Assembly: GCA_964550955.1 (NCBI GenBank)
Contig: CAZKAF010000002.1
Location: 9,335 to 73,334 of the forward strand
Source of the DNA: an uncultured Candidatus Saccharibacteria bacterium
Lineage (GTDB): Bacteria > Patescibacteriota > Minisyncoccia > Phycocordibacterales > CAIZLB01
DNA: 64,000 bases
Direction: 5' to 3'
Numbering within the stretch: position 1 is the stretch's first letter; every line of letters starts with the position of its first letter. The notes beneath the pieces were generated by a model, which was not told where the DNA came from, did no database searches, and saw nothing but the letters and a program-made list of their open reading frames with translations. The position numbers and the translations under genes were made by a program. Positions 45,252 to 64,000 of the stretch are shown piece after piece.

Positions 45252-46362
45252 GCTGAAGCGGAACGTCAAATCCCCCGTTTTTCATATGCAGCTCTTTTTC
45301 AACTTCAGCCATGTCGGAAAGGACCATTTCTTTTACTAATTCATCAAGGCTGTATGTCGGAACCCAGCCGAGCTTTTCCCGCGCCTTCGTCGCGTCGCCG
45401 ACAAGCAAATCCACTTCAGCCGGCCTGAAGTACTCCGGGCTTACTTTTACGAGGACTTTCCCCGTCGCCTTGTCCGTACCGACCTCTTCAATGTCCGCGC
45501 CGCTCCATTCGATCTGAATGCCGGCATGCGCGAACGCCTTTGCCACGAATTCCCTTACGGATATCTTCTGGCCCGTCGCGAGCACGTAATCTTCAGGCGT
45601 TTCCTGCTGCAGAATCCTCCACATTCCTTCAACATAATCCTTGGCATGTCCCCAGTCCCGGAGCGAATTCAAATTTCCAAGATACAGGACTTCCTGCAAG
45701 CCGTGCTTGATTCGCGCGGCCGCTCTCGTAATCTTCCGAGTCACGAACGTCTCGCCACGAATGGGGCTTTCATGGTTAAACAATATGCCGTTTGTCGCAT
45801 ACATTCCATACGCCTCCCTGTAATTCTTCGTAATCCAATACCCGTACAGTTTTGCAACGCCGTACGGAGAACGCGGATAGAAAGGAGTCGTCTCTTTTTG
45901 AGGAACTTCCTGAACGAGGCCGTACAGTTCGGAAGTCGAAGCCTGATAGAAGCGGGTCTTCTTTTCAAGACCGAGAATCCTGATCGCCTCGAGAATGCGA
46001 AGCACGCCGATGCCGTCCGCATTGGCCGTATACTCGGGCGTTTCGAAAGACACCTGCACGTGCGACTGCGCGGCAAGATTGTATATTTCATCCGGCTGAA
46101 CCTGCTGAACGAGCCGGATCAGGTTAGTGGAATCGGTCATGTCGCCGTAATGCAGGAAAAACCGCACGCCCGCTTCATGCCGATCCTTGTACAGATGATC
46201 GATGCGGTCAGTGTTAAGAAGCGACGAGCGGCGCTTCATGCCGTGCACGACGTATCCTTTTTCCAAAAGGAGCTCTGCCAGATATGCGCCGTCCTGTCCC
46301 GTAATGCCGGTAATCAGCGCCACCTTGCCAGTGCCGCCGCTTTTTTGTTCGGATGAATTCAT
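45244..46362 (-). CDS. gmd: GDP-mannose 4,6-dehydratase
   Basis: [31 protein letters not shown] (YxxxK) and the NHESPIRG Gmd signature. Confidence 0.9.
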
Positions 46363-50621: not shown

Positions 50622-51947
50622 ATGGAATCTAATATGCATACTGAAGCCAATCCTGTCAGCCTGAAAAGCCGAATAATCAATTATCTGTCGCATGAAGGAT
50701 TCCAGAAATATTTTTGGAATACCGGCTGGCTATTCATCGGCCGAATCGCGAGCCTTGTCGTATCTTTCTTTGTCACCGCCTTCATCGTCAGGAGCCTCGG
50801 ACCTGCGAACTACGGCGAGCTCAGTTACGCGGTAAGCTTTATCTCGATTTTTTCATTCATCGCGACGCTCGGACTCGACACCGTCTTATATAGAGACATC
50901 ATCAAGTATCCTGAGCGTGCAGGAAGATACCTCGGAACGGCATTGATACTTCGAATTCTGGCTGGCGCGATCGGAGTCATCACCTGCCTGGCATTCGCCT
51001 TCTTCTCTTCGGTACAGGGAGACGTTTCGTATCTTCTCATAAGCATCCTGTCGCTCACGTTCGTCTTCAATTCGTTCAGCATATTGGGATACGAATTTCA
51101 GGCCAAAGTTCAGTCGAAGCATCTTTCCATCGCCTCGTTCATAATCCTGATAGCGCTGAATGCTCTTAAGATTGCGGCAATCCTGTCCGGCAAAGGCGTC
51201 ATATACCTCGCCTTGATCCTATTGTTCGAGCCGATACTTACCGGAATCGTATTTGTCACATACAGAGTCGCGCTATACGGCAGATTCAAGGATTGGAACT
51301 ATGACAGGGCAATTGCGCTGGACCTCCTGAAAAACTCATGGCCGATGATGCTGGCCGGAGCGTTTGCGGTCATATATTCGCGAATAGACCAAATATTCAT
51401 AAAGCACCTCCTTGACGCGTCAGCCGTCGGCTTCTATGATGCGGCAGTCAGAATATCCGAGGCGTGGCTTTTCATTCCGACAATCATCGTCTCCTCGCTG
51501 TTCCCGGCAATCATCAACGCAAGCAAGGTTTCGGACCTCGAATACTCGAAACGGCTCAAGCGGCTGTCCCTCCTGCTCTTCTGGATCGCAATCGGAATCG
51601 CGATTCCGATGACAGTTTTTGCGCCGCTTGTCATCTCGCTCTTATACGGGCCGGCATTCGTAAGCCAATCGACGATTATCTTGCAAATATATGTATGGGG
51701 CGGGGTCGGCCTGTCCGTCGGAGCGCTTACGACAAATTACCTCATCGCGGAGAATCTCAGAAAGGCCATTTTCGTATCGTCGCTCATAACGATGGCGCTG
51801 AACATCGCATTGAACATGATGCTCATTCCGAAGTACGGCATCGAAGGATCGGCATGGGCGACGGCGATCTCATACGCGGCGGTGCCTCTTTCGATCCTGC
51901 TATTCAAAATCCCGAGGCGGCGGATTTCCAGCATATTAAAGATATAA
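50622..51947 (+). CDS. wzx: Wzx-type polysaccharide flippase (MOP/PST family)
   Basis: 441 aa, about 12-14 TM helices, the typical polysaccharide-biosynthesis-protein N-terminus, and KYGIEGSAWATAISY near the C-terminus. Confidence 0.8.
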   Translation: MESNMHTEANPVSLKSRIINYLSHEGFQKYFWNTGWLFIGRIASLVVSFFVTAFIVRSLGPANYGELSYAVSFISIFSFIATLGLDTVLYRDIIKYPERAGRYLGTALILRILAGAIGVITCLAFAFFSSVQGDVSYLLISILSLTFVFNSFSILGYEFQAKVQSKHLSIASFIILIALNALKIAAILSGKGVIYLALILLFEPILTGIVFVTYRVALYGRFKDWNYDRAIALDLLKNSWPMMLAGAFAVIYSRIDQIFIKHLLDASAVGFYDAAVRISEAWLFIPTIIVSSLFPAIINASKVSDLEYSKRLKRLSLLLFWIAIGIAIPMTVFAPLVISLLYGPAFVSQSTIILQIYVWGGVGLSVGALTTNYLIAENLRKAIFVSSLITMALNIALNMMLIPKYGIEGSAWATAISYAAVPLSILLFKIPRRRISSILKI

Positions 51948-51971
51948 GATTTAGGTATATAATAGAAAACC

Positions 51972-53666
51972 ATGACAAACTCAGACTCGCCGAAAAGATC
52001 AATCATCACGTCCGCTTCAAGCAAATTCTTCCCTTCCTTGCTGAATCTCATCGGTTCCATCAAGAAAAACTATCCCGATCATCCCCCAATATATGTGTAT
52101 AATCTCGGGCTGTTCCCGACTTACAAGGCTGAATTGAAATCCATAGAGGGAGTCAGCCTCGTCGAGATGCCGAGGTTCTGCAGCTTTTGGAGAAAATGCT
52201 ACACATGGAAGACGTACATATTCAAGCATCCGTTCACTTCCACGACCCTGTACCTTGATGCCGGAAACGAGGTTTTGAAGCCGCTGAATCCGCTGTTCGA
52301 TCAGATAGAGCGAAACGGATATTTGGCCGTGCAGCAAGGCATAGAAAGCAAGGCGATAATACCCGAAGACTACGTCTCGCTTTTCGGCATCGACAAGGAA
52401 ATTTTGGGCAAGAAAGTGATAACGGCGGGCATTTTCGGATTCGATACGACAAGCGCGCTCGTGAAAAAGATTATCGCCGATCTGCATGACGCGTCGCTTG
52501 CAGGACTTTGCCTCGGCTATTCCCGGACTGAACTTTGGAAAAACAAGCATCCCAACAACAACTTCTTTGTTCGAAACTGCGCCCATTTCCGGCACGACAC
52601 GACGCTTCTGACAATCCTGCTATATGCTAGGATTCCGAACCTGATTTCAGAAGACGAATACAAGTTCGGGGCGCAGCGCGGCGAGCACAACAAGGCAGAT
52701 CAGATTATCCACAATCTGAGGATGAATTATGACACCCTTCATAACATACGAAGGTCGGTTCTCAAGCCGAAGGCCGTCCTGGCGGCGCAGGCGAATCGAT
52801 TCTTAATCAACGGCTTCTTCGTCCTGAAGAGAGCCAACAAGGCGGTCAAGGGCATCCTGCTTAACAGGAATATCTTCTCCCCGATATTCGGGGAGAACCT
52901 GAACATTGTCATGGATTCTTTTCATGAGTACCCGGGCGGACCTGAAAAGCTGTTTTCAAATGTTAGGCTATATCATCACCAAAAGGCATACATATGCAGC
53001 AAGTTCATCGAGAAGGAGGCATCCGCATCGGGAGCATTTCTTGATGCTGGCGCAGGAACCGGACCATACAGCAGAATAGCTTCGCCCTTGTACGGAAAGG
53101 TGTATGCATACGAATACAACGAGGCAGAACTCGAAAAGGCCAGGGAAAATTTAAAAAGCTCCCGAAACATCGAGTTCGGAGAGGTTGACCTCAGAAAGAT
53201 ACCTTTGGAGGACGAATCAATCGATGTTTTCATATGCTCGGAAGTGCTTGAGCACATACAAGACGAAGAACTCGCCGCAAAGGAGCTATTCAGGATACTT
53301 AAGCCGGGAGGCAAGGCCCTGATTTCCATGCCAAATAAAAATAGCATCTTCTACAGAAAGATAGCCCGGATGACTCAGGATCTGGTCTTGAAAAAGAGCA
53401 GCGGCGAAGAACTGTCGTACGGCGAATGGGAACGAATAAGGCACATAAGCTTCGGTTCGGCTGACATTGAAAAGATCGTGACGGACGCCGGATTTCGAAT
53501 AACGAAAAGGCATGGGGCGAATCTCATTCCGCTTCCTACCCCCATCAGAAAGTTTCTCATGACGAAGATGCCGGCGCTATTCTACATTTGGGCGATTCTC
53601 GAAAGGAACTTGTCAAAGCTGGCCCCTTCTTCTTGCTCATTTTATTTCGTGGAAATCGAGAAATAA
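51972..53666 (+). CDS. Bifunctional protein: N-terminal nucleotide-sugar glycosyltransferase-like domain fused to a C-terminal class I SAM-dependent methyltransferase
   Basis: The C-terminal domain has the SAM motif I FLDAGAGTGPYS, the acidic loop, and the post-I motif ICSEVLEHIQD...LKPGGKALISMPNKNS. The N-terminal 330 aa have a YLDAG (DxD-like) motif, but the family is not confidently recognised. Confidence 0.65.
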   Translation: MTNSDSPKRSIITSASSKFFPSLLNLIGSIKKNYPDHPPIYVYNLGLFPTYKAELKSIEGVSLVEMPRFCSFWRKCYTWKTYIFKHPFTSTTLYLDAGNEVLKPLNPLFDQIERNGYLAVQQGIESKAIIPEDYVSLFGIDKEILGKKVITAGIFGFDTTSALVKKIIADLHDASLAGLCLGYSRTELWKNKHPNNNFFVRNCAHFRHDTTLLTILLYARIPNLISEDEYKFGAQRGEHNKADQIIHNLRMNYDTLHNIRRSVLKPKAVLAAQANRFLINGFFVLKRANKAVKGILLNRNIFSPIFGENLNIVMDSFHEYPGGPEKLFSNVRLYHHQKAYICSKFIEKEASASGAFLDAGAGTGPYSRIASPLYGKVYAYEYNEAELEKARENLKSSRNIEFGEVDLRKIPLEDESIDVFICSEVLEHIQDEELAAKELFRILKPGGKALISMPNKNSIFYRKIARMTQDLVLKKSSGEELSYGEWERIRHISFGSADIEKIVTDAGFRITKRHGANLIPLPTPIRKFLMTKMPALFYIWAILERNLSKLAPSSCSFYFVEIEK

Positions 53667-53686
53667 AGGCGTGCTATAATTCCACC

Positions 53687-54406
53687 ATGAGAGCAAGCCT
53701 CATATCATCCCTCTACCGTACCGACGCCTACATACAGGCATGGCACCGACGAACGCGAAAAGTGCTTGACCAGCTCAATGCGTCAAATATTGAGGCCGAA
53801 ATAGTGGTAGTGGCAAATGACCCGACCAAAAAAGAGATGGCCGTGTTGGAACAGCTCAAGGAGGATTCAAGATTCAAAGTCCTGATTGTCGGGCGAGAAA
53901 GCATCTATGCATCTTGGAATCGGGGCTTGTCCGAATCTTCCGGAGACATCTGCGGCTTCTGGAACGTGGACGACGTCAGGTTCAGCAAGGCGATCATCGA
54001 TGCCGCGGAAAGATTTTCAAAGGGCGCGAGTCTCGTATACTTCCCTTTCATCTACAAGCGCTATGTCAAAGCGTTCGGTTTCTCAATATTGGCCAAGATA
54101 AAAATATTCAAACCGCCCGCGTACGATTCCGAAATTTTCAGAAAAGAGATGCATTGCGGTCCTTTTTTCATGTTTAAAAAGGACTTCTTCCAAAAAGTCG
54201 GGAATTTTGATGAGTCATATAAGATTTCCGGAGATTATGAATGGTGCACGCGCGCCGCAAAGATAAGCGCATTTGAGAAATCAGATACGCTTGGCGGAAT
54301 CTTCACCAATGACGGCACGACATTGAGCGGAAGCAAAAGCAAGCTTCAGGAAGAGGAGAACGCGCGGGTAATCAGCGAGCAGCCGAAGAACAATCAAATC
54401 GCATGA
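53687..54406 (+). CDS. Small GT2-like glycosyltransferase (family uncertain)
   Basis: Start chosen at MRASLIS; the ORF is open from 53588 and overlaps the previous gene. Contains DD-type motifs FWNVDDVRF and ISGDYEWC. Confidence 0.5.
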   Translation: MRASLISSLYRTDAYIQAWHRRTRKVLDQLNASNIEAEIVVVANDPTKKEMAVLEQLKEDSRFKVLIVGRESIYASWNRGLSESSGDICGFWNVDDVRFSKAIIDAAERFSKGASLVYFPFIYKRYVKAFGFSILAKIKIFKPPAYDSEIFRKEMHCGPFFMFKKDFFQKVGNFDESYKISGDYEWCTRAAKISAFEKSDTLGGIFTNDGTTLSGSKSKLQEEENARVISEQPKNNQIA

Positions 54407-55371
54407 ACAATCAAGCAAATTCAATGAAAGTCATCGTGCTGATGCCGACAAAAAATGAGGAGTGGATAATCGATTCAACCTTGAAAACTCTCAGTGCTTT
54501 TGCTGATCACATCATAATTGCGGACCAGCATTCGACCGACAGGACTCGCAAAATATGCGCCAATTACCCGAAAGTCCGCGTCGTTGACAACCATGAGACA
54601 TGTCATAGCAATAAAGTAAGATGGCTGCTTCTGGATGAAGCAAGGAAAATGCCGGGCGAAAACTTAATCTTGTGCGTGGATGCCGACGAGATGATTTCCA
54701 AATCATCAATTCAAAAAGTGCTTGAAAAGGCAGCCGAAGCCGGACCCGGTACGGCGTTCAGCTTTCCTTGGATTCAGCTTTGGAAAAACACCTCGCAGCA
54801 CAGAATCGACGGAGCATGGAACAGGAATTTCAAGATTGCAGGATTTTACGATGGCCGGACAACGGATTATCAGAGGACTTTCGTAATCAACGATCACACG
54901 AACAGAGTGCCGCTGAACCAAGAGGCCGGGATTATCGCGATGGAAGCCCCCCTTCTCCACTTTCAGTTTGCCGCATGGAACAGAACCCGGATAAAGCAAG
55001 CGTGGTACAGATGCTCGGAACTCATCGCGACGCCCGGAGCCGAACGCCGAATCAATCAGAAATACTCGCCAAGCGATGATTCGGAGACGGTAAAAACAGA
55101 ATCGGTGCCATCGAGCTGGACCGAGGGCATTTTCCTGCCCGAACAGGAAGTCCTTCAGGATACCGACGATGCGCGCAAAAAAGAGATATTGGGATGGTTC
55201 GACAAATACGGCATCTTATTTTTCGAAGGCCTGCAGATATGGCACGTTGACGAGCTTGAGCGGCTTTTTGTTTCAAGAATCGGCCGGCCGCCCAAACCGA
55301 AGACTTTTCCAAGAATGCTGGTAAAATTGAACGCATTGAAGAATTTCATTATAAGCAGGATAAAAGCGTAG
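54403..55371 (+). CDS. Glycosyltransferase family 2
   Basis: VIVLMPTKNEEWII N-terminus, a DxD at VDADEMIS, and a GT-A fold signature. The start codon overlaps the previous stop (ATGA). Confidence 0.75.
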   Translation: MNNQANSMKVIVLMPTKNEEWIIDSTLKTLSAFADHIIIADQHSTDRTRKICANYPKVRVVDNHETCHSNKVRWLLLDEARKMPGENLILCVDADEMISKSSIQKVLEKAAEAGPGTAFSFPWIQLWKNTSQHRIDGAWNRNFKIAGFYDGRTTDYQRTFVINDHTNRVPLNQEAGIIAMEAPLLHFQFAAWNRTRIKQAWYRCSELIATPGAERRINQKYSPSDDSETVKTESVPSSWTEGIFLPEQEVLQDTDDARKKEILGWFDKYGILFFEGLQIWHVDELERLFVSRIGRPPKPKTFPRMLVKLNALKNFIISRIKA

Positions 55372-55374
55372 ACA

Positions 55375-56277
55375 ATGCACAAGATAAAAAACATCATCCG
55401 AAACTTGGTCGAAAAAATGACGGGCAGGAAATTAATCTTCGCTCGAGACAAAGGCAGGCACACGGCCGCCCTGTCAAAGCTGGGCTTTTGGTATGCGGGA
55501 AACGTGTTTGATACCGCGGATATCGCATACGGCATATCGCAAAACGGCGTCGTCGAAGAGGAAGAGACGAATCTGGTAATACGAATAATGGATTTCCTGA
55601 CGAGCAAAAATGCGCTGACATCATTTTACGATATCGGCGCGAACACCGGATATTACGGAATCCTTGCTGGCTACAGATATGGAGCGTCAGTCGAAGTCAA
55701 TTCCTTCGAGCCCATCGAAGAACATGCGGACTGCATCAAGAAAAGCATGTATCTGAACAGGCTGGAAAGCATCATGCGGGTTCACAGCCTGGCGCTTGGC
55801 AATGAAAACAAGACTGAAAAGATATATGTTGCCGGATCCGGAACTTCCCTGAACAAGGATTTCATACAGGGCAATTTTGAATCGACCGCGCAAATCGAAG
55901 TCAGAAGGCTTGACGATATCGTCCTCGGAGGCAAAGAGGGTAAATCATCAATTAGGCTTCCGGACTTCGTCAAGATAGATGTCGAGGGATATGAGCAGCA
56001 GGTGCTTGAAGGAGCGATGACGACGCTGAGAGAAGGACTGCCCGTTCTTTATGTCGAAATCGCCAAAACTCTCAAGAACTTAGGAAGAGACGGTTTTGAA
56101 AGTTCTTCTTGCTTGGAAACATTCGGCCTCTTGAGCAAGCTCGGGTACGAGCCATTCATTCTCAAAGAATCCAAGATTGCAAAGTTTGATCCGGCAAACT
56201 TTGCAGACGGAGTGATGATGTATCTGTTCCTTCATGCGGCCAAGCACAAGGACATAAGGGAGATGCTCTTGCAATAA
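55375..56277 (+). CDS. FkbM-family SAM-dependent methyltransferase
   Basis: FYDIGANTGYYG and the FkbM signature FVKIDVEGYEQQVLEGA. Confidence 0.8.
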   Translation: MHKIKNIIRNLVEKMTGRKLIFARDKGRHTAALSKLGFWYAGNVFDTADIAYGISQNGVVEEEETNLVIRIMDFLTSKNALTSFYDIGANTGYYGILAGYRYGASVEVNSFEPIEEHADCIKKSMYLNRLESIMRVHSLALGNENKTEKIYVAGSGTSLNKDFIQGNFESTAQIEVRRLDDIVLGGKEGKSSIRLPDFVKIDVEGYEQQVLEGAMTTLREGLPVLYVEIAKTLKNLGRDGFESSSCLETFGLLSKLGYEPFILKESKIAKFDPANFADGVMMYLFLHAAKHKDIREMLLQ

Positions 56278-56278
56278 C

Positions 56279-57571
56279 ATGACAAGCCTCAGAACGAAAA
56301 TCAAAAAGGTCGCATTGCTGCTGCCCAAACCAGCAAGGATTCTGGCGATAAGAACATACGAAAGTTTTTTCTTCCATAAGACCCTCTACAGGGTTCGGAA
56401 TGAATTAAGCACGAAAGACCTGTTCAGCGCGCATGTGCAGAACAAGAAGCCTCGCGTTTTGTTCTACCACGTATCCGGCTTAAGCTTCGGCGGCACTGAA
56501 AAGTTTCTGCAGATTATCGCCAAGCACATAGACAAAAACAAATACGATGCCTATTTCATGTATTCGCCGAAACCGAGAGGCAGTTCCGGGAACATTCGTC
56601 TTGACGGAAGAAAAGAATACGTCAATGAGACAGACATCGAGCTCATTGAATTTGATTATCAGGCAATCGAGCTGGCATATCCGCATGTTGTCACGGAAAT
56701 GAAGCCGAGCATTTTTAATATTTTGAAAGAAAGAAATATCGACTTATTAATCACGACAGGCGCCGGTTACAGCGAATATCCGTTCAATATAATTAGAAAT
56801 ATTCCGATAATCCTTATTAACATATTCGGATCTCCGGCAATTCAGGACAATATTTCAAAGCACATATCAATATCAAAAGCGGTGGATTCAAAAATAAAAT
56901 CGATAATACCGACAAGCAAAAGAGATGTCATCTACATACAATCAGAGCGGCCCGATCCAAGTTACAAGGCGGCGGGGCAAGAGCTGAGGAAAAAGTTCGG
57001 AATCAAGGAAACTGACACGGTGTTCGGAAGAATCGGCAGGGCTGACGACGGCATATTTGATCCGATAGGAATAATGGCTTTCAAGTCCGTCGTAAGGAAC
57101 AATCCAGATGCGCATTACATCGTCATGTCGCCGCCTCCTGTTCTTATCGAACTCGTAAAAACCGAGAACATTCAGAATGTTCATTACTGCACGACTAGTG
57201 CAGTAGAGCGAGATGTGTGGAGCTTTCATTATTCGCTTGACGCCCTGGCCCATTTCAGGCTCGACGGCGAATCTTTCGGGCTCAATATTGCAGAATCAAT
57301 GATTGCCGGAAATCCGATCATCACGCACAAATCTCATATCTGGAATGGGCATCTGGAATATCTTGATTCTGCATTCAGTTTCGTAGCGGAAAAGGATGAC
57401 GTGAAAAAGTATGCGGAACACATGGAATCAATCATCAAGGCGAAGAAGGACGGAACGATTGCGCAAATGAAGGAAGCATCTCTCAGGGCCGGAGAAAGGC
57501 TATTCCTTGTTGAGAACTCTATTGGTAAGATAGAAGGCCTAATCGACGAAGCCATAGCTAATTTCAAATAA
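56279..57571 (+). CDS. Glycosyltransferase, GT-B fold (GT4-like)
   Basis: C-terminal E-x7-E motif ESFGLNIAESMIAGNPII. Confidence 0.75.
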   Translation: MTSLRTKIKKVALLLPKPARILAIRTYESFFFHKTLYRVRNELSTKDLFSAHVQNKKPRVLFYHVSGLSFGGTEKFLQIIAKHIDKNKYDAYFMYSPKPRGSSGNIRLDGRKEYVNETDIELIEFDYQAIELAYPHVVTEMKPSIFNILKERNIDLLITTGAGYSEYPFNIIRNIPIILINIFGSPAIQDNISKHISISKAVDSKIKSIIPTSKRDVIYIQSERPDPSYKAAGQELRKKFGIKETDTVFGRIGRADDGIFDPIGIMAFKSVVRNNPDAHYIVMSPPPVLIELVKTENIQNVHYCTTSAVERDVWSFHYSLDALAHFRLDGESFGLNIAESMIAGNPIITHKSHIWNGHLEYLDSAFSFVAEKDDVKKYAEHMESIIKAKKDGTIAQMKEASLRAGERLFLVENSIGKIEGLIDEAIANFK

Positions 57572-57574
57572 CCC

Positions 57575-58513
57575 ATGCTCATCATCTACACTCGACCCAA
57601 CGGCATATTCAAGAAAGAGCGCCTGAAGCACGTCCTTTCGCGCATTACCGGAAAGCTCCGGGGACCGAGGGCCGTGCTTGAAAGCATGAGGCGCGGATTG
57701 AATGCGCTTCATGTTCCCTACCGCGTCAACCCGTCGTACAGGAAAATACGGCCCGAGGATGTCGTTCATGTCGTGTCAGGCGCCGAAACCTTGAGGGAAT
57801 GCGTCGAGCTGAAGAAGCAAGGCATCATCAGGAAACTGATCGCCGGGCCGAGCATCGCCGTCATTCCGAGCGAAGAGCAAGAACTGCTTCTTGACCCGAG
57901 CATAGACGCGGTGCTCGTGCCTTCGGATTGGGTAAAGGACCTGTACGCGCGCCTGAATCCTGAATTGTCGGGAAAGACATTCGCATGGTTCGCGGGCGTC
58001 AATGTCTCAAAGTCGAAACCGAGAAAGAATTCTGAAAAGGAAATCGACTATCTCATTTATTACAAGAACGCTGATCCGTCGCTCCTGACATTCGTCGAGT
58101 CGCAGCTCGTGAAGCGGCACAAGAGCTTCAAGAAAGTCATCTACGGAGAATTCGAGCAGGCTGATTTTTTCAGGAAGCTCAAGAAATCAAAAGCCATGAT
58201 CTATCTCTCGCCTTCCGAAAGCCAGGGACTGGCATTGAACGAGGCCTGGATGCGCGACGTTCCGACGCTCGTATGGGACCGCGGATATTGGGAATACAAG
58301 GACGTCAGATGGGAACATGAGAAGATAAGCGCGCCGTACCTGACGGACGAGCTCGGACTGACATTCGGCGGAGAATCTGACTTTGTCCAGAAGCTGGAAC
58401 TCTTCGAACTGAAGCTTGCGGATTTCAGGCCGAAAGAATATTCCCTTGAGCACTTTACCGACGAGAAATCCGTCCAGAACCTCTTGGGCATAATCGATTC
58501 AAATAACGTATAA
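57575..58513 (+). CDS. Putative glycosyltransferase (GT-B-like C-terminal half)
   Basis: SESQGLALNEAWMRDVPTL resembles the E-x7-E donor-binding motif of GT4/GT1 enzymes. The N-terminal part is divergent. Confidence 0.5.
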   Translation: MLIIYTRPNGIFKKERLKHVLSRITGKLRGPRAVLESMRRGLNALHVPYRVNPSYRKIRPEDVVHVVSGAETLRECVELKKQGIIRKLIAGPSIAVIPSEEQELLLDPSIDAVLVPSDWVKDLYARLNPELSGKTFAWFAGVNVSKSKPRKNSEKEIDYLIYYKNADPSLLTFVESQLVKRHKSFKKVIYGEFEQADFFRKLKKSKAMIYLSPSESQGLALNEAWMRDVPTLVWDRGYWEYKDVRWEHEKISAPYLTDELGLTFGGESDFVQKLELFELKLADFRPKEYSLEHFTDEKSVQNLLGIIDSNNV

Positions 58514-58541
58514 TGAGTCCCATATAACAAACCAAAGACCA

Positions 58542-59300
58542 ATGAACCACCTTCTGCAGAATTCAAAAGAGCTTATCAAGAAAGCTATCAGGTACTCCCT
58601 GTCCCCCTTTATCCTCGGAGATTATTACGCATACAAGAAAGTGAGAGGGTCGGACCGCTTCATGGTCAGCCCCGCAGATTTCTACCCGTGCATCAAGGAC
58701 AAGACGATCGCGACCGGATTCGACCGGCATTATGTGTACCACACTTCCTGGGCGGCGCGAGTAGTCAGGGAAATAAACCCCGAATATCATGTGGACATTT
58801 CATCAAGCCTGTTCTTTTGCGGAATAGTCTCCGCATTCGTTCCGGTTCGCTTTTATGACTACCGGCCGGCTGACCTCAGGCTGAGCGGCCTGGAAACGGA
58901 ACGAGCGGACCTGCACGACCTCCAGTTCCCGGATGAAAGCGTCAAGTCGCTCTCATGCATGCATACCCTCGAGCATATCGGCCTCGGCAGATACGGCGAC
59001 CCCATCGATGCCGAAGGCGACCTCAAGGCCATCGAGAGCTTGAAACGAGTGACGGCGAAAGACGGCTCGCTTCTGATAGTAGTCCCTATCGGCAAGCCGA
59101 AAATCGAGTTCAACGCGCATCGCATTTATTCATACGAGCAAATCATTTCATACTTTGCAGACGAAGACATGTACCTTCACGAATTCTCATTTATCCCCGA
59201 ATTCGAAAAAGACGGCGGCCTCGTAAGAAACGCCGATCCGAAAATTTCCGAGAACGAGCACTATGCATGCGGATGTTTTTGGTTTAAAAAGAAAGCGTAG
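58542..59300 (+). CDS. DUF268-family putative sugar O-methyltransferase
   Basis: HTLEHIGLGRYGDPID motif characteristic of DUF268 methyltransferase-fold proteins. Confidence 0.5.
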   Translation: MNHLLQNSKELIKKAIRYSLSPFILGDYYAYKKVRGSDRFMVSPADFYPCIKDKTIATGFDRHYVYHTSWAARVVREINPEYHVDISSSLFFCGIVSAFVPVRFYDYRPADLRLSGLETERADLHDLQFPDESVKSLSCMHTLEHIGLGRYGDPIDAEGDLKAIESLKRVTAKDGSLLIVVPIGKPKIEFNAHRIYSYEQIISYFADEDMYLHEFSFIPEFEKDGGLVRNADPKISENEHYACGCFWFKKKA

Positions 59301-59406
59301 TCTGGTGGCAGCAGTCGAGTCGTGTCGTCGCGACAATCGCGCCGTCGCGTCCAGAACGCATGACAATGGACAAGGTCGGCCCCGAAAGAGCCGGCGTTGA
59401 AAGTTT

Positions 59407-60267
59407 TTACTTAGTGAACAGATAGTCGCATGCCTTTGACTCGACAAGCGAGAATCCTGCGTCCTGAATCAGCCCGATGCATTTGTCACGATTCCTGTCG
59501 CTGATTTCTATCATCATATACGAGCCCGCTGGCATTGCGGCCAGGGTCGCAGTCATGCCTGACAAGACTTCGAACTCGAAGCCCTCCACGTCCATTTTCA
59601 CGAAGTCGATTTCGGATTGGCGCATGTTCTGGTCAAGGCACAGCGCGTCGACGGGCACGGCCTGTACGGTCACGACGGTGTCCCAGACAGCACCGGATTC
59701 CTTGTCCACGATTCTCCCTCCTCCCAAGTGCCGGGTATCGACTTCAAAGGTGACCGGGTCCGCATTATTGCTGACAGCTTTTTGAACGAGGGTGACTTTG
59801 TCTTCGAGATCATTGAGCCCGATATTTGCCTTCAAGACATCAAACGTAATCGGGTTCGCCTCGACGGCAACAGTTCTCTCATAGCCGAATGCCAGCGCGG
59901 CGAGCAGCGAATAGCGTCCGATGTTCGCGCCAATATCCAGCGCGATTCTTTTCTGCTTGGGCATGCCGACCCAGCGCCTCAAATCTGACTCGAAATACGG
60001 AGCGGAGATGGTGAAGCTGTCATTGAACGGCCGTACCAGAAATTTGCCGACGCTGTTTGAAATCACGAATCGCTTGGCCGAATTGTCCAGAAGATGCGCG
60101 ACCGGCGCCGGAAACTTTCGGAGCGCCGACTTGGCAACATTCACGCCATGCGTGAGGAAAAAATAAAATATAAATGAAAGCTTGCCTCCTTTGATGACTT
60201 TGGTCTGGAATGCAGTGTCCCATATCTGGCTGATTTTGTTCAATTTCATGCCCAAATTATATACCAT
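59407..60267 (-). CDS. FkbM-family SAM-dependent methyltransferase (second copy, opposite strand)
   Basis: LDIGANIGRYS and FVKMDVEGFEFEVLSG motifs. Confidence 0.8.
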   Translation of the reverse strand: MVYNLGMKLNKISQIWDTAFQTKVIKGGKLSFIFYFFLTHGVNVAKSALRKFPAPVAHLLDNSAKRFVISNSVGKFLVRPFNDSFTISAPYFESDLRRWVGMPKQKRIALDIGANIGRYSLLAALAFGYERTVAVEANPITFDVLKANIGLNDLEDKVTLVQKAVSNNADPVTFEVDTRHLGGGRIVDKESGAVWDTVVTVQAVPVDALCLDQNMRQSEIDFVKMDVEGFEFEVLSGMTATLAAMPAGSYMMIEISDRNRDKCIGLIQDAGFSLVESKACDYLFTK

Positions 60268-60356
60268 CGAGGGCGTATTGGCAGGCCCGGCAGGCCGTCG
60301 CGCCTGGCCAGCCGTCCGGCTTGACCTCCGCTTTCTTATGCTATGATATTTCCCAT

Positions 60357-61307
60357 ATGATAGTCCTCAAGCTCAAAGCCGGCCTCGGAAACCAGATGTT
60401 TCAATATGCCTATGCAAGAGCCCTCGCGCTTAGAAGCAACGCCGAGCTTGCCTTAGATTTAAGCTGGTTTAACAGCGTATCTGAACGCGACACGAAGCGG
60501 GAGTATGGCTTGCATCATTTCAACATAGGCGCGGACGTCAGGATCAAGGCTGAATTGCCCGGCAAGACCGAGAAAGGATCCGCCGGAAAACTATTTCACA
60601 GAATCTTAAATAAGATGCGCCGACTTGCGCTCAACAGAAGGGATTATGTTTTCTATCCGGCGCTTATCCGTCCGCGGAAACATGCCGTAGTAGAGGGATA
60701 TTGGAATTCCGAAAAGTATTTTAAGGACTTCGCGGACGCGATCAGGGACGAACTTTCCATAAAGGCCCAGCTCGGGCGGGGCGCGATGGCCGCGCATGAA
60801 GAATTGATAAAATTAAAAGAAACAAATGCTCTGACATGCATCCATGTTCGGCGAGGCGACTACGTAAGCAGCAGCCGCGCTTCCGCGCATCACGGCCTGT
60901 CGGGAGTCGAATACTACGAGAAAGCCGTCGAGGTTCTGGTCGAGAAAATGAAAAATCATTCAGCTTCTTCAACAGCCTCAACGGCTTCAAGACCGCTGAT
61001 GTTCATTCTGGCATCGGACGACATCGAATGGACGAAGGAAAACATCGTGCCCTTGCTCCCCGAAGGATCAGCGCACAGGGCGATTTCGAACCCTGCCGAA
61101 ATAAAGGATTACGAGGAAATGCATCTCATGTCTCTGTGCGATCACTTCATAATCGCGAACAGCACGTTCAGCTGGTGGCCGGCATGGCTGTCGGAGAGCG
61201 CGGAAAAGTCAGGACAAGAAAAAATCGTAATCGGACCGAAGCGCTGGATCGCCGATCCGTCCGCAGACACGACAGATGTGATGCCCGAAAGGTGGATTAG
61301 GATTTAA
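60357..61307 (+). CDS. Alpha-1,2-fucosyltransferase (glycosyltransferase family 11). The start is probably MIVLKLK; the ORF is open from 60321.
   Basis: GT11 N-terminal signature IVLKLKAGLGNQMFQYAYARALA, GYWNSEKYF, HVRRGDYV and SDDIEW motifs. Confidence 0.8.
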   Translation: MIVLKLKAGLGNQMFQYAYARALALRSNAELALDLSWFNSVSERDTKREYGLHHFNIGADVRIKAELPGKTEKGSAGKLFHRILNKMRRLALNRRDYVFYPALIRPRKHAVVEGYWNSEKYFKDFADAIRDELSIKAQLGRGAMAAHEELIKLKETNALTCIHVRRGDYVSSSRASAHHGLSGVEYYEKAVEVLVEKMKNHSASSTASTASRPLMFILASDDIEWTKENIVPLLPEGSAHRAISNPAEIKDYEEMHLMSLCDHFIIANSTFSWWPAWLSESAEKSGQEKIVIGPKRWIADPSADTTDVMPERWIRI

Positions 61308-61317
61308 ATAAGCAAAA

Positions 61318-61962
61318 ATGCAAACAGAATACAAAGAAATACTGGGCAATCAAAATATAAAAGGCCTGCTGGTTGATTTTGACAACACGATATACAAATA
61401 CGACCCCTGTCACGACAAGGCAATAAAGGCAGTCCACTCGAACCATTTTTCAGATATTGAATTTGAGGAATTCAACGACTCATACAAAGCCGCCCAGAAA
61501 CAGGTAAAGGCGAGGATACCGAATCAGGCAGCGAGCCATTCGAGACTTCTTTATTTTCAGAACCTGTTAGAAAAAATGGAGGGCAAGAGCAATCCAAAAA
61601 AATCCCTCGTCCTGGAGGACGAATACTGGTCTGCGTTCAGGGAGCAGATGGAAATCGATCCTGAGATAATTGATTTCATCGGACTTTGCCGGAAAAACGG
61701 CCTGAAAATATGCATGGTGACGGACTTGACCGCCTCGGTACAATTCCATAAGATGTGCGCATCAGGGATATCCGAACTCTTCGATTTCATCGTAACTTCA
61801 GAGGAAGCCGGCGCCGAAAAGCCTGGTAAAGCCATATTTCAACTTGCTCTTGAGAAAATGAGGCTTTCAGAGTCAGAAGTCGTCATGATTGGCGACGACG
61901 ACACAAAAGACATATATGGAGCGAACACACTTGGAATTAAAGCATATTCTGTCAAGAATTGA
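61318..61962 (+). CDS. HAD-superfamily hydrolase
   Basis: Motif I LLVDFDNTIY, motif III K, and motif IV IGDDDTKDIYGA. Confidence 0.75.
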   Translation: MQTEYKEILGNQNIKGLLVDFDNTIYKYDPCHDKAIKAVHSNHFSDIEFEEFNDSYKAAQKQVKARIPNQAASHSRLLYFQNLLEKMEGKSNPKKSLVLEDEYWSAFREQMEIDPEIIDFIGLCRKNGLKICMVTDLTASVQFHKMCASGISELFDFIVTSEEAGAEKPGKAIFQLALEKMRLSESEVVMIGDDDTKDIYGANTLGIKAYSVKN

Positions 61963-64000
61963 GGCCACGCTCGCTGCAGGCAAAGAGGCCTTTTTGCCGA
62001 TTTTAAGATCCCCGCTCTTCTTGATTCCTCTTTCGATTAAAATTATCGCGAGCTTTTTCTTTGCATCAGGCGCGGCCGTCGATTCCTTCATTCCTTTCTT
62101 GAAATATTTTGCGCTGGCAAATGTCGCAGACATATATTCGCATGCCGCAACGCTAAATCCGGAAATGCTTTTTCCGTATCCAAACCCGGTGCCGTGGATT
62201 TTTTCAATCGCATACGCGTCAGGATCATTCTTTTTCGGAACGGCGCTGGCTGCAGTGACACATTTGGACCTATTCTTGCTCAGGATACCCGTACTGCTGG
62301 CTGACACGGGCATACTTCTGATATTGGTCGCATGGTTCAAAAATAAGGAAAAAGCATTGCTCGCGCTTTACTGGTGCTCGCCGATTACCTTTTACATAAG
62401 CTACGTGCACGGGCAATTGGACGCAGTTCCCGTGTTTTTCTTATTTTGCTTTCTATACCTTTTCTTCAGGGAAAGAGATTGGGCGGCCCTCTTCTTCTTA
62501 GGACTATCCATTGCTTCAAAAACCGGGATGATCCTTGTCCTCCCTTTCACCTTCCTGTATTTCTTGAGAGAAAGGGGCTTCAGCATCAAGACTCTGTTAA
62601 AAATACTCCTGCCGCCGGCAATATTTCTAATGCTGAACGCGGCGAATCTGCTAAATCCGCATTTCATCGATTCGGCGCTCATCAACCAGCAGCAGCTCAG
62701 GATATTCGATTTAAGAATAATGTTCAACGAGAAAACCGTCTTGTACGTGCTGCCTATCGTATACACGATGCTCCTGTTTAAATTTGCGACGTTCAAGCGT
62801 TACAGCAGGGACCTGTTTATGACTTTTCTCGGATTCAGCTTTTTTACCATCACTCTTTTCATACCACCAATACCAGGGCTGTATTTTTGGATAATCCCTT
62901 TTGCCGTTTATTTCTTCGCGAAGGCGGAGGGCAGGCAAAGAACGCTGTACCACCTGCTTTCTTTTGCATATTTTCTCTTCTTCATCATGACGCAAGACTC
63001 GGACCTGATCGAATCCTTTCGTCCGTTCGCCGAATCCGATATTGAGAACGTTTATGCCTTCATGGAGGCAAATTGGTCTTCACCCGCAATCATAAGCAAC
63101 CTGTCATTCACCTTTTTGCAGGGAGTATTGCTCGCAAACATATATTGGATTTCAAAGAAAGGCATAGAGCAGTATACGAGATACAAGATGCACTATAAGC
63201 CATTCTTGATCGGGGTTGCCGGAGATTCCGGAAGCGGAAAGAGCACTTTTGCGGACCTGATGGTTGACATATTTGCCCAAAAGCACGTTTCCGTAATTGC
63301 GGGAGATGATATGCACAAATGGGAACGCGGCGATGAAAAATGGACAAGGTACACCCACCTTGACCCTCAGGCCAATGAGCTGCATTCAGAGATAAACTGC
63401 CTCTACAAGCTGAGAGACGGGTCTTCCATCATCAGGCGCAATTATGACCATGCTTCCGGAAAGTTCGCATTGCCCAAGGTGCATGATTCGAAGAGGCTGG
63501 TTATCTTCGAAGGCCTTCATTCATTATTTTTGGAAAAAGCCAGGGAGATATTCGACCTCAAGGTATTTATCTCGCCGGAAGAGCAGCTGAAATTGCACTG
63601 GAAAATCATGCGGGACCAGGCAAAGAGAGGCTACACGAAAGAAGCGGTTTTGGAGCAGGTCAAATCGAGGCAAGGCGATGTCGAAAAATACATCAACGTG
63701 CAGGAAAAGCATTCCGACATATCGATTTCGCTAAAAAATACTTTTGATTTGGGCGACCGCATCGGCAATCAGGATGTCGAATTATGCCTGTATCTTGAGA
63801 TTGGCTGCACGAACAATGTCAATCTGGCCCCGCTGCTGGAAGAGCTCTCGGCTCACTTGGACACGGATTTCAAGGTAAATGATGAAAGGCAGACAATGAA
63901 ATTTTCAGGCAATATTGACCGGGAATCCCTTGACAGGATTTCAAGAATTGCGGTTCCAGAATTAGACGAAATCGGAATCAGCCAAAGAAAGTGGAGCGAC
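61916..64000 (+). CDS. 3'-partial ORF that continues past the window end: polytopic membrane domain fused to a phosphoribulokinase/uridine-kinase-family P-loop domain. Not present in the supplied ORF track.
   Basis: Hand translation of the frame with codon starts congruent to 2 mod 3. It is open from the stop at 61886 to nt 64000. The first ATG is at 61916 (overlapping the HAD gene by 47 nt); another ATG is at 62165. The first roughly 330 aa form about 10 hydrophobic helices. Then comes the Walker A KPFLIGVAGDSGSGKSTFADLM (compare PRK VIIGVAADSGCGKST and Udk IGIAGGSGSGKTT), followed by ISPEEQLKLHWKIMRD. The start is uncertain. Confidence 0.6.
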   Translation, partial: MERTHLELKHILSRIEATLAAGKEAFLPILRSPLFLIPLSIKIIASFFFASGAAVDSFIPFLKYFALANVADIYSHAATLNPEMLFPYPNPVPWIFSIAYASGSFFFGTALAAVTHLDLFLLRIPVLLADTGILLILVAWFKNKEKALLALYWCSPITFYISYVHGQLDAVPVFFLFCFLYLFFRERDWAALFFLGLSIASKTGMILVLPFTFLYFLRERGFSIKTLLKILLPPAIFLMLNAANLLNPHFIDSALINQQQLRIFDLRIMFNEKTVLYVLPIVYTMLLFKFATFKRYSRDLFMTFLGFSFFTITLFIPPIPGLYFWIIPFAVYFFAKAEGRQRTLYHLLSFAYFLFFIMTQDSDLIESFRPFAESDIENVYAFMEANWSSPAIISNLSFTFLQGVLLANIYWISKKGIEQYTRYKMHYKPFLIGVAGDSGSGKSTFADLMVDIFAQKHVSVIAGDDMHKWERGDEKWTRYTHLDPQANELHSEINCLYKLRDGSSIIRRNYDHASGKFALPKVHDSKRLVIFEGLHSLFLEKAREIFDLKVFISPEEQLKLHWKIMRDQAKRGYTKEAVLEQVKSRQGDVEKYINVQEKHSDISISLKNTFDLGDRIGNQDVELCLYLEIGCTNNVNLAPLLEELSAHLDTDFKVNDERQTMKFSGNIDRESLDRISRIAVPELDEIGISQRKWSD

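What the first reader, a model, noticed from the sequence alone, without database searches (positions are those of the whole stretch)
61916..64000. Unannotated long ORF at the window end: polytopic membrane domain fused to a PRK/uridine-kinase-like P-loop kinase
Hand translation shows an open frame from the stop at 61886 to the window end, more than 690 codons with no stop. It is missing from the supplied ORF track because it has no in-window stop. The first roughly 330 aa are strongly hydrophobic and multi-helical. They are followed by KPFLIGVAGDSGSGKSTFADLM, which closely matches the Walker A of phosphoribulokinase/uridine kinase family enzymes, and by further conserved PRK/UK-like blocks. 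A membrane-embedded nucleotide/sugar kinase at the end of a glycan locus is unusual. It could phosphorylate a lipid-linked intermediate or a sugar, or it could be a GT-C-like transferase fused to its own substrate kinase.
Basis: partly seen in the sequence, partly recalled or inferred. Interest (0 to 1): 0.6.

Follow-up and report, generated by a model that had tools for sequence, protein, structure and literature searches.

The report
Membrane glycosyltransferase fused to phosphoribulokinase
The open frame is a real gene, cut off by the window end, that joins a membrane glycosyltransferase-type domain to a phosphoribulokinase-type sugar kinase; it belongs to a widespread gene set that nobody has characterised and that probably turns a pentose phosphate into a lipid-carried sugar for decorating the cell surface.

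Summary
There is no stop codon from 61889 to 64000. The start is ATG 61916, and about 27 C-terminal residues lie beyond the window.

Residues 1-~410 form a polytopic GT-C-fold module. Its closest relatives are GPI mannosyltransferase I/PIG-M, ALG6, ArnT and PimE. Residues ~429-695 form a cytoplasmic phosphoribulokinase-type kinase. The ATP motifs and the residues that bind the ribulose-5-phosphate phosphate are invariant across the family.

New here:
- The overlapping upstream HAD gene is most similar to the haloarchaeal ribulose-1,5-bisphosphate 5-phosphatase.
- In 87 homologous loci from many bacterial phyla and DPANN archaea, the fusion travels with that HAD, a class II ketose-1-phosphate aldolase-like gene (sometimes fused), a pair of nucleotidylyltransferases, a small GtrB/ArnC-like GT2, an unknown ~200-aa protein and often GtrA (sometimes fused).

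Best reading: the kinase and HAD make ribulose-1-phosphate from ribulose-5-phosphate. This feeds a Gtr-like system that decorates a surface glycan outside the membrane. The sugar transferred and several steps are inferred.

The canonical acidic motif of loop EL1 is absent, so catalysis by the membrane module is unproven. I found no publication on the fusion or the cassette.

The parts
61916..64000 (+). 3'-truncated gene for a bifunctional membrane protein, GT-C module plus PRK-type kinase. 695 of about 722 codons are in the window.
   Evidence: No stop from 61889 to 64000. The start is fixed by alignment with 25 homologs. 101 homologs were found, typically about 720 aa. The AlphaFold model has pLDDT 89.5 and pTM 0.86.
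61916..62011 (+). N-terminal K/R-rich helix (aa 1-32), inferred to be cytoplasmic.
   Evidence: Helix 2-31 in the model. Family mean is 4.3 K+R against 1.9 D+E.
62012..63142 (+). GT-C-fold transmembrane module (aa 33-409). It carries the invariant residues F61, F86-P-Y88, D130, Y152-W153, P156, Y163, D169 (HGQxD), K202, P210 and P328.
   Evidence: The N-domain model has pLDDT 91.1. Foldseek hits are 9wno GPI-MT-I, 5f15 ArnT, 6snh ALG6, 9dm5 PimE and 9s6r ALG3. The family profile hits GPI mannosyltransferase 1 at E = 0.004. Topology comes from loop charge.
63143..63199 (+). K/R-rich cytoplasmic extension of the last transmembrane helix. It links the membrane module to the kinase (aa 410-428).
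   Evidence: A continuous helix spans 390-424. The segment has 4.1 K+R on average.
63200..63739 (+). PRK-type kinase core (aa 429-608). Walker A GVAGDSGSGKST is at 63212-63247, GDDMHKWER at 63302-63328, NYDHASG at 63440-63460, FEGLHS at 63506-63523 and WKIMRDQAKRG at 63599-63631.
   Evidence: PF00485 at E = 1.6e-40. NCBIfam PRK07429 gives 192 bits. Gap-free alignment to cyanobacterial PRK 6hzk/6kev, E about 1e-37. All motif residues are invariant in 81 sequences.
63740..64000 (+). C-terminal alpha/beta subdomain of the PRK fold (aa 609-695), cut by the window end.
   Evidence: Foldseek aligns 260-300 columns with PRK structures 9qko, 9qkp, 5b3f and 6hzk. Homologs continue for about 27 residues with a conserved GYxGxxQLF tail.
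61318..61962 (+). HAD-family phosphatase gene that overlaps the start of the fusion gene by 47 nt. Its closest model is the ribulose-1,5-bisphosphate 5-phosphatase.
   Evidence: Pfam Hydrolase and HAD_2. NCBIfam NF053830 at E = 1e-52, 179 bits, against a cut-off of 330; the next-best model scores 114 bits. The same best hit is found for the HADs of six homologous loci. An HAD partner is present in 70 of 87 loci.

Best explanation
The gene encodes a two-part inner-membrane enzyme.

Membrane part. Residues 33-409 form a GT-C-fold module, inferred to have about 12 transmembrane helices. Its conserved polar residues (D169, K202, mid-membrane D130) face the outside of the membrane or lie within it.

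Kinase part. Residues 429 to the end form a phosphoribulokinase-type kinase in the cytoplasm.

Proposed pathway, with the status of each step:
1. The kinase converts ribulose-5-phosphate, or a very similar pentulose 5-phosphate, to the 1,5-bisphosphate. This is inferred from the complete conservation of PRK active-site residues.
2. The translationally coupled HAD removes the 5-phosphate to give ribulose-1-phosphate. This is inferred from its closest characterised relative.
3. The class II aldolase-family enzyme encoded just downstream in homologous loci, and fused in some, epimerises, rearranges or cleaves that ketose-1-phosphate. The chemistry is unknown.
4. The paired nucleotidylyltransferases activate the product, and a small GtrB/ArnC-like GT2 loads it on polyprenyl phosphate. 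GtrA brings it across the membrane. All of this is inferred.
5. A GT-C enzyme transfers it to a surface glycan. That enzyme is either this module or one of the variable large membrane proteins in the cassette.

The fusions of GtrA, the GT-C module, PRK and the aldolase in different lineages suggest that these steps form one membrane-bound assembly.

Shown here: domain identities, residue conservation, topology by charge, fusions and gene co-occurrence.
Inferred: every substrate, the order of steps and the sugar transferred.
For: - Kinase identity: PF00485 at 139 bits. Sequence E about 1e-37 to solved PRKs against about 1e-11 to uridine-cytidine kinases. The fold matches PRKs over 260-300 columns.
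- Active site: R471, Y510 and H512 align to Arg64, Tyr103 and His105, which hold the Ru5P phosphate in CrPRK. These residues, the Walker A lysine K442, D464 of the DDxH motif, K563, R566, D567, R571 and R585 are invariant or nearly invariant in 81 sequences.
- Membrane module: the GT-C fold matches have probability 1.00.
- Topology: all K/R-rich loops alternate consistently with a cytoplasmic N-terminus and a cytoplasmic kinase.
- HAD: the best model in all seven tested loci is the RuBP 5-phosphatase, at 150-201 bits; the next-best model scores 133 bits or less. That enzyme was shown to make Ru1P from RuBP (PMC9700705).
- Aldolase partner: it keeps the zinc histidines and the catalytic glutamate. 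It is closest to rhamnulose-1-phosphate aldolase domains.
- Co-occurrence: unbiased clustering of 87 loci gives nucleotidylyltransferase in 80, GT2 in 75, the ~200-aa protein in 74, aldolase in 71, HAD in 70 and GtrA in 25. No other family is in more than 14 loci. Of 39 loci with full flanks, 33 have all five partners.
- Fusions: aldolase fused at the C-terminus (P0044) and GtrA fused at the N-terminus (P0064).
- Obligate pairing: 116 of the 120 long proteins found with the membrane domain alone carry the kinase.
Against: - No enzyme of the cassette has been assayed.
- Ribulose-1-phosphate carries its phosphate on C1, not on the anomeric C2. It is therefore not an ordinary substrate for making a glycosyl donor, and no isomerase was found among the conserved partners.
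- The HAD and kinase scores are below NCBIfam's equivalog cut-offs: 179 against 330, and 192 against 236.
- The GT-C module has no invariant acidic residue in loop EL1, where PIG-M, ALG6 and PimE have their catalytic base. The PIG-M DxD aligns to non-acidic residues.
- 64 of 87 loci hold another large polytopic protein that could be the true transferase.
- About one locus in ten with full flanks lacks the HAD or the aldolase.
- In this window, only the HAD and the fusion gene are visible.
Confidence: 0.5

Rival explanations
1. The membrane module is a GT-C-fold protein that does not catalyse glycosyl transfer. It would bind the polyprenyl-linked intermediate, or scaffold the pathway, as PIG-U does in GPI transamidase. 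The variable large membrane proteins of the cassette would be the real, acceptor-specific transferases. The kinase would still feed the pathway.
For: - No invariant acid in EL1; the column of D56 is acidic in only 52% of sequences.
- The PIG-M DxD position aligns to P-F-x-K.
- PIG-U has the same fold, lacks the DxD and is not a transferase. PIG-U chains are among the fold hits.
- 64 of 87 loci have another large polytopic ORF, and these belong to varying families, like the variable GtrC proteins.
- One such protein gives a weak PMT_2 hit.
Against: - D130, D169 and K202 are invariant in 81 sequences. They align with a conserved D, E and K of GPI mannosyltransferase I.
- D169 and K202 lie in loops predicted to face outside.
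- Other GT-C enzymes place catalytic residues outside EL1 (own knowledge: PglB EL2 and EL5).
Confidence: 0.2
2. The kinase acts at the membrane on a lipid-linked pentose. For example, it could phosphorylate the free primary hydroxyl of a polyprenyl-phospho-pentose. The HAD would later remove that phosphate, by analogy with the DPPR to DPR step of mycobacterial arabinan synthesis.
For: - The kinase is tethered to a polyprenyl-binding fold in nearly all family members.
- The full-length model has pTM 0.86, which suggests a fixed domain arrangement.
- A phosphate about five carbons away from a primary hydroxyl is geometrically similar in Ru5P and in a polyprenyl-P-pentofuranose (inference).
Against: - The closest relatives of the kinase, the HAD and the aldolase all act on soluble pentulose phosphates.
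- Two nucleotidylyltransferases in the cassette imply a soluble sugar phosphate.
- No evidence bears on a lipid site in the kinase.
Confidence: 0.12
3. The kinase, HAD and aldolase form a cleavage route: ribulose-5-phosphate to RuBP to Ru1P to DHAP plus glycolaldehyde. This is the lower half of the haloarchaeal non-carboxylating pentose bisphosphate pathway. Its purpose here would be to supply a C2 or C3 unit for modifying the glycan, not a pentose.
For: - The HAD is closest to the RuBP 5-phosphatase of that pathway, and the partner belongs to the same class II aldolase family as its Ru1P aldolase.
- The aldolase keeps its catalytic residues.
- No isomerase is present that could turn Ru1P into an anomeric sugar phosphate.
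Against: - DHAP is already abundant.
- No conserved enzyme in the cassette would use glycolaldehyde.
- The aldolases match the Ru1P aldolase model only weakly, at 25-28 bits.
- The nucleotidylyltransferase, GT2 and GtrA set points to a sugar carried on lipid.
Confidence: 0.1
4. The kinase is an ordinary phosphoribulokinase that supplies RuBP to a RuBisCO-based pathway, as proposed for PRK homologs in some CPR bacteria. Its fusion to a membrane protein would be incidental.
For: - The PRK active site is complete.
- PRK homologs related to archaeal and divergent cyanobacterial PRKs were reported in CPR genomes and linked to RuBisCO (PMC6389311).
- The best fold matches here are those same divergent cyanobacterial and archaeal PRKs.
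Against: - The fusion and its glycan cassette are conserved in many heterotrophic lineages.
- No RuBisCO or CBB gene is among the conserved neighbours.
- The adjacent HAD would destroy RuBP.
Confidence: 0.04

Closest known systems
Phosphoribulokinase, class II type (cyanobacterial, plant and archaeal), e.g. PDB 6hzk, 6kev, 5b3f; and the divergent 'cyanobacteria specific PRK' 9qko, 9qkn
   Same: - Same fold, including the C-terminal subdomain.
- Gap-free alignment over 178 kinase-core residues at E about 1e-37.
- Same Walker A, DDxH...R, YxH, EGLH and KxxRDxxxR motifs.
   Different: - It is fused behind a membrane domain of about 410 aa.
- The regulatory P-loop cysteine is serine.
- The score is below the NCBIfam PRK cut-off, 192 against 236.
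- The context is a glycan cassette, not CBB genes.
- A minor clade has a degenerate kinase.
GPI mannosyltransferase I (PIG-M/Gpi14, GT50) and other GT-C enzymes (ALG6, ArnT, PimE, ALG3)
   Same: - Best fold match is 9wno, with TM-scores 0.60/0.62.
- It is the only sequence-profile hit in the PDB, at E = 0.004.
- The inferred plan of 12 helices with both ends cytoplasmic matches Gpi14.
- A conserved D, an E or D, and a K align.
   Different: - The catalytic DxD of EL1 is not conserved.
- Sequence identity is 12-15%.
- It is bacterial and carries a kinase.
Three-component extracytoplasmic glycosylation systems: GtrA/GtrB/GtrC; mycobacterial PpgS/Rv3632/Rv3779; and the pentofuranose systems of Kelly et al. 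2024 (PPPRS + MATE + GT136)
   Same: - A small GT2 resembling ArnC, PgfS and PpgS, GtrA and GT-C-fold proteins occur together.
- The concept is a lipid-linked sugar added to a finished glycan outside the membrane (PMC11127046).
   Different: - The donor supply is different. Here it is a PRK-type kinase, a RuBP phosphatase-like HAD, a class II aldolase-like enzyme and two nucleotidylyltransferases. It is not PRPP with a polyprenyl phosphoribose synthase.
- The flippase candidate is GtrA, not a MATE transporter.
- An extra conserved ~200-aa protein of unknown function is present.
Non-carboxylating pentose bisphosphate pathway of halophilic archaea (Sato et al. 2022)
   Same: - A HAD closest to its RuBP 5-phosphatase.
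- A class II FucA-family aldolase next to it.
   Different: - RuBP would come from PRK. The archaeal pathway makes it from nucleosides through ribose-1-phosphate kinase and R15P isomerase, and neither is in the cassette.
- The setting is biosynthetic and membrane-associated, not catabolic.

Membership tests
PRK/uridine kinase family (PF00485) | Match to the family HMM above the gathering score | tested here: met
   139.4 bits against a cut-off of 22, covering residues 431-605 and profile positions 1-188 of 196.
Phosphoribulokinase (EC 2.7.1.19) | Walker A P-loop and Walker B glutamate | tested here: met
   GDSGSGKST at 436-444 and the glutamate of the FEGLHS motif (531-536). G436, S438, G441, K442 and GLH 533-535 are invariant in 81 sequences.
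Phosphoribulokinase (EC 2.7.1.19) | Residues that hold the ribulose-5-phosphate phosphate (CrPRK Arg64, Tyr103, His105) and the catalytic Asp, Lys and Arg set | tested here: met
   R471, Y510 and H512 align to these residues and are invariant. D464, H467, R566, D567, R571 and R585 are also invariant, and K563 nearly so. The R. sphaeroides residue roles are from my own knowledge.
Phosphoribulokinase (EC 2.7.1.19) | Score above the curated NCBIfam PRK cut-off | tested here: not met
   PRK07429 gives 192.1 bits against a cut-off of 236. It is still far above the uridine kinase models, at 75 bits.
Phosphoribulokinase (EC 2.7.1.19) | ATP-dependent phosphorylation of Ru5P to RuBP | not testable with these tools
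   Needs an enzyme assay.
GT-C glycosyltransferase superfamily | GT-C fold of the transmembrane module | tested here: met
   The top Foldseek PDB hits (ranks 1-7, 9, 12 and 14) are GT-C enzymes and ranks 8, 10 and 11 are PIG-U chains with the same fold; ranks 1-11 have probability at least 0.99; TMq is up to 0.65.
GT-C glycosyltransferase superfamily | Conserved acidic catalytic residue in the first external loop | tested here: not met
   No invariant D or E at residues 49-90. The best column (D56) is 52% acidic. The PIG-M DxD aligns to non-acidic residues. Invariant D130, D169 and K202 lie elsewhere.
GT-C glycosyltransferase superfamily | Cytoplasmic N-terminus and a long first external loop with amphipathic helices | tested here: inconclusive
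   Charge distribution fits N-in, 12 transmembrane helices and C-in, provided helix 91-107 is not a full span. Model coordinates could not be inspected.
GT-C glycosyltransferase superfamily | Use of a polyprenyl-phosphate-linked sugar donor | not testable with these tools
   The only support is the association with GtrA and a GtrB-like GT2.
GT50 (PIG-M) and GT87 (PimE/DUF2029) | Family HMM match above cut-off and the family's catalytic motif | tested here: not met
   The window protein has no Pfam hit in the N-domain at E <= 1. Homolog P0078 gives GT87 at 19 bits (cut-off 25) and ALG3 at 24.4 bits, just over its cut-off of 23.6. The DxD is absent.
Gtr-type three-component glycosylation system | GtrA-like protein, GtrB-like GT2 and GT-C transferase encoded together | tested here: met
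   At family level: GT2 in 75 of 87 loci; free GtrA in 25 loci, plus N-terminal fusions. In this window these genes are not visible; by synteny they are expected beyond position 64000.
Haloarchaeal RuBP 5-phosphatase (NF053830) | Score above the equivalog cut-off | tested here: not met
   179 bits against 330. It is the best model by about 65 bits. The same holds in six other loci.

The most novel reading that the evidence does not exclude
A previously unrecognised biosynthetic use of phosphoribulokinase. RuBP made at the membrane would be trimmed to ribulose-1-phosphate. A seven-gene cassette would then convert it into a nucleotide-activated and then lipid-linked pentose or pentulose that decorates surface glycans. 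The carriers would be hundreds of bacterial species from many phyla and some DPANN archaea. The pathway would include an unknown way of turning a ketose-1-phosphate into a transferable unit, possibly involving the uncharacterised ~200-aa protein family.
Probability: 0.35. Interest if true: 0.8.

Novelty: new variant of a known kind. Interest (0 to 1): 0.66.

Why it matters
- PRK and RuBP are textbook markers of CO2 fixation. A conserved role in making cell-surface glycans would be a new function for them.
- It would also be a caution for metagenomic annotation. Sources that name these proteins call them 'uridine kinase' or 'phosphoribulokinase'. PRK homologs in CPR genomes have been read as carbon-metabolism genes.
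- The cassette occurs in cultured bacteria: Acetobacter lovaniensis, Flexibacter flexilis, Paenibacillus tianmuensis, Leptospira ognonensis and Massilia. The pathway, its unknown sugar and the unknown ~200-aa enzyme family are therefore directly testable.
- For CPR bacteria, whose surfaces mediate attachment to hosts, it points to a specific surface modification.

Tried and rejected
- Literature searches for the fusion or the cassette found nothing relevant. A search for the papers behind the 9qkn and 9qko structures also found nothing.
- Pfam, NCBIfam and PDB sequence searches of the conserved ~200-aa protein gave no hit. A homolog search returned more than 1,500 proteins, all unnamed. Its HR...ExDxR...HD pattern reminded me of GDPD/PI-PLC phosphodiesterases. 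That is recollection only and was not tested.
- The large polytopic partner proteins have no family match except one weak PMT_2 hit.
- An RBS test of the three candidate starts was uninformative.
- I looked for other cassette genes inside the window by tblastn. Only the HAD is there.
- I considered that the kinase might be uridine kinase. I rejected this because the PRK models and structures score far higher.
- I considered methionine-salvage-like chemistry (MtnB and HAD). I dropped it because the MtnB scores are marginal.
Full report
**Observation**

Translating 61886-64000 on the + strand gives a TGA followed by 704 sense codons up to the window end. From the window's base composition, a stop-free run of that length has a probability of about 6e-14. 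The ORF lister does not report ORFs that run off the end, so its absence from the ORF track is mechanical.

The start is ATG 61916. MERTHLELKHI aligns with the N-termini of the closest homologs. The ATG overlaps the upstream gene (61318-61962) by 47 nt. The homologous locus L001 has the same overlapping arrangement. Homologs are about 720 aa long, so about 27 C-terminal residues lie beyond the window.

**The kinase half**

- PF00485 matches residues 431-605 at E = 1.6e-40.
- The closest NCBIfam model is a phosphoribulokinase subfamily, at 192 bits. This is below its 236-bit cut-off but far above the uridine kinase models, at 75 bits.
- Against PDB sequences, the kinase core aligns without gaps to cyanobacterial PRK (6hzk, 6kev; E about 1e-37) and to archaeal PRK (5b3f). 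Uridine-cytidine kinases score about 1e-11.
- The full-length AlphaFold model is confident, with pLDDT 89.5 and pTM 0.86. Its C-terminal 270 residues superpose on PRK structures over 260-300 columns, including the C-terminal subdomain.
- In Chlamydomonas PRK, the Ru5P phosphate site is formed by Arg64, Tyr103 and His105. The aligned residues here are R471, Y510 and H512.
- Those three residues, the P-loop residues G436, S438, G441 and K442, D464, H467, GLH 533-535, R566, D567, R571 and R585 are invariant in 81 family members; D465 and K563 are nearly invariant.
- The redox cysteine of photosynthetic PRKs is a serine here.

The domain therefore has everything a PRK needs. Its activity is untested.

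**The membrane half**

The window protein's N-domain has no Pfam match. Homologs give weak ALG3, Alg6_Alg8, GT87 and MptA_B hits.

A separate model of residues 1-425 has pLDDT 91.1. It matches GT-C-fold proteins only:
- GPI mannosyltransferase I (9wno)
- ArnT
- ALG6
- PimE
- ALG3
- STT3
- PIG-U
- ALG12
- ALG9
- EmbB

A profile of eight diverse N-domains hits one PDB family by sequence, GPI mannosyltransferase 1, at E = 0.004. In that alignment D130, D169 and K202 pair with a conserved D, E and K.

Across 81 sequences, the loops at 141-144, 185-187, 219-225, 292-298, 335-338 and 410-428 are rich in K and R, as is the N-terminus. The loops holding D169 and K202 are not. This fits a protein with the N-terminus inside, about 12 membrane spans and the kinase inside. 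Gpi14 has the same plan. It requires that helix 91-107 is not a full span, which I could not check without the coordinates.

One defining feature is missing. There is no invariant acidic residue in the first external loop, and the DxD of PIG-M aligns to non-acidic residues. PIG-U has the same fold without the motif and is not a transferase. Catalysis by this module is therefore plausible but not established.

**Context inside the window**

The gene ends a + strand glycan locus:
- Wzx flippase
- several methyltransferases
- two GT2 genes
- a GT1
- a GT11 fucosyltransferase

On the other strand lie a Wzy_C-TPR protein, GDP-mannose dehydratase and an epimerase.

The overlapping upstream gene is a HAD phosphatase. 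Its best NCBIfam model is the ribulose-1,5-bisphosphate 5-phosphatase: E = 1e-52, 179 bits, with the next-best model at 114 bits and the cut-off at 330. That enzyme was shown in haloarchaea to convert RuBP specifically to ribulose-1-phosphate. A class II aldolase then cleaves the product. No other member of the cassette described below is present in the window.

**Context in relatives**

Seven loci fetched through exact protein matches showed the same neighbours in CPR bacteria, Flexibacter, Muricauda and Martelella:
- the HAD
- a class II aldolase
- two nucleotidylyltransferase-like genes
- a small GT2
- a ~200-aa protein
- GtrA
- a large polytopic protein

The aldolase is fused to the C-terminus in the ~1,058-aa forms. 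GtrA is fused to the N-terminus in the ~840-aa forms. Locus L007 shares wider synteny with this window: SecA, Wzy_C-TPR, GDP-mannose dehydratase, epimerase, HAD and the fusion.

A scan of one genome per GTDB species found at least 322 species with a relative. They include:
- CPR lineages
- Bacteroidota
- Alpha-, Beta- and Gammaproteobacteria
- Acidobacteriota
- Paenibacillus and Clostridium
- Leptospira
- Melainabacteria
- Bdellovibrionota
- Elusimicrobiota
- DPANN archaea

I clustered all ORFs of the 87 loci without prior labels. Number of loci in which each family accompanies the fusion:

| Family | Loci (of 87) |
|---|---|
| Nucleotidylyltransferase | 80 |
| GT2 | 75 |
| ~200-aa protein | 74 |
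| Aldolase | 71 |
| HAD | 70 |
| GtrA | 25 |

No other family occurs in more than 14 loci. Among the 39 loci with full 10-kb flanks, 33 have all five main partners.

Further properties of the partners:
- All seven HADs tested have the RuBP 5-phosphatase as their best model.
- The aldolases keep the zinc histidines and the catalytic glutamate. They are closest to the aldolase half of rhamnulose-1-phosphate aldolase/dehydrogenase proteins.
- The GT2 resembles ArnC, PgfS and PpgS.
- The nucleotidylyltransferases resemble sugar-1-phosphate enzymes.

A search with the membrane domain alone found 462 clusters at E <= 1e-10. Of the best 150 proteins, 120 are long enough to carry the kinase, and 116 of those do. 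The fusion is therefore the rule for this GT-C subfamily.

**Mechanism**

The simplest reading has three parts:
1. The kinase makes RuBP, or a close analogue, from a pentulose 5-phosphate.
2. The HAD removes the 5-phosphate, leaving the phosphate on C1.
3. The aldolase-family enzyme, the nucleotidylyltransferases, the GT2 and GtrA convert this into a lipid-linked unit that a GT-C enzyme adds to a surface glycan.

This would be a Gtr-like three-component system with its own donor-supply branch, related in concept to the pentofuranose systems described in 2024.

The weak point is chemical. Ribulose-1-phosphate is not an anomeric phosphate, and no isomerase is conserved in the cassette. The step that creates a transferable unit is therefore unknown. 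It may involve the aldolase-like enzyme or the uncharacterised ~200-aa protein.

Which membrane protein does the final transfer is also open. 64 of 87 loci contain another large polytopic protein from variable families. This recalls the variable GtrC proteins.

**Rivals**

| Rival | Confidence |
|---|---|
| Non-catalytic scaffold role for the membrane module | 0.2 |
| Kinase acting on a lipid-linked pentose | 0.12 |
| Cleavage route giving DHAP and glycolaldehyde | 0.1 |
| Ordinary PRK feeding RuBisCO, as proposed for CPR PRK homologs | 0.04 |

The last is contradicted by the conserved glycan context and by a neighbour that would destroy RuBP.

**Novelty**

I found no paper on the fusion or on the cassette in the searchable library. 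Sources that name these proteins call them uridine kinase, phosphoribulokinase or hypothetical.

The domains and the general scheme are known kinds. The combination, and a glycan-related role for a PRK, are new. I rate it a new variant of a known kind, with interest 0.66.

Noticed in passing
window 17534-25210 (-): A giant 2,558-aa ORF with LVIVD repeats and a C-terminal Peptidase_S74 (endosialidase chaperone) domain. It is probably a large surface or fibre-like protein.
   Followed up: no
proteins P0205, P0215, P0221, P0232 (relatives, not in the window): A small clade keeps the GT-C module and the C-terminal subdomain and tail. It has lost the Walker A and most kinase motifs, so it looks like a pseudokinase. 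Another group has GKH instead of GK[ST] in the P-loop.
   Followed up: partly
L001:5982-6611, L002:12556-13140, L003:9414-10004, L004:13001-13612, L005:15274-15906: A conserved ~200-aa cytoplasmic protein (IAHRINT...GVEIDxR...HDP) is present in 74 of 87 loci. The family has more than 1,500 members, all unnamed, with no Pfam, NCBIfam or PDB sequence match.
   Followed up: partly
L032, L034, L041: Relatives of the fusion, with parts of the cassette, occur on contigs assigned to DPANN archaea (Micrarchaeia, Woesearchaeota). This suggests transfer between domains.
   Followed up: no
L012: A contig titled 'MAG: Rickettsia typhi' carries a fusion gene 40% identical to the window protein, together with the full cassette. 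The label looks doubtful for an obligate intracellular species.
   Followed up: no
window 44298-46362 (-), 60321-61307 (+), 55375-56277 (+), 59407-60267 (-): GDP-mannose 4,6-dehydratase with an epimerase/reductase gene, a GT11 fucosyltransferase and two FkbM-type methyltransferases. The locus probably builds a fucosylated, methylated glycan.
   Followed up: no
window 57575-58513 (+) and 46458-48107 (-): ORFs of 312 aa and 549 aa inside or next to the glycan locus. The 312-aa ORF has no Pfam match; the 549-aa ORF has only one sub-threshold match.
   Followed up: no
window 9228-10286 (+), 12092-13177 (-): A PfkB-family sugar kinase and a 361-aa ORF with the transketolase pyrimidine-binding and C-terminal domains, which looks like one half of a split transketolase. 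The organism probably has pentose-phosphate interconversion that could supply Ru5P.
   Followed up: no
window 50622-61962 (+), gene starts: Genes of this locus have A-rich leaders and no recognisable Shine-Dalgarno sequence. Several neighbours overlap or abut, which suggests translational coupling.
   Followed up: partly
window 868-940 (-): A single tRNA gene. It is the only Rfam match in the window at gathering threshold.
   Followed up: no
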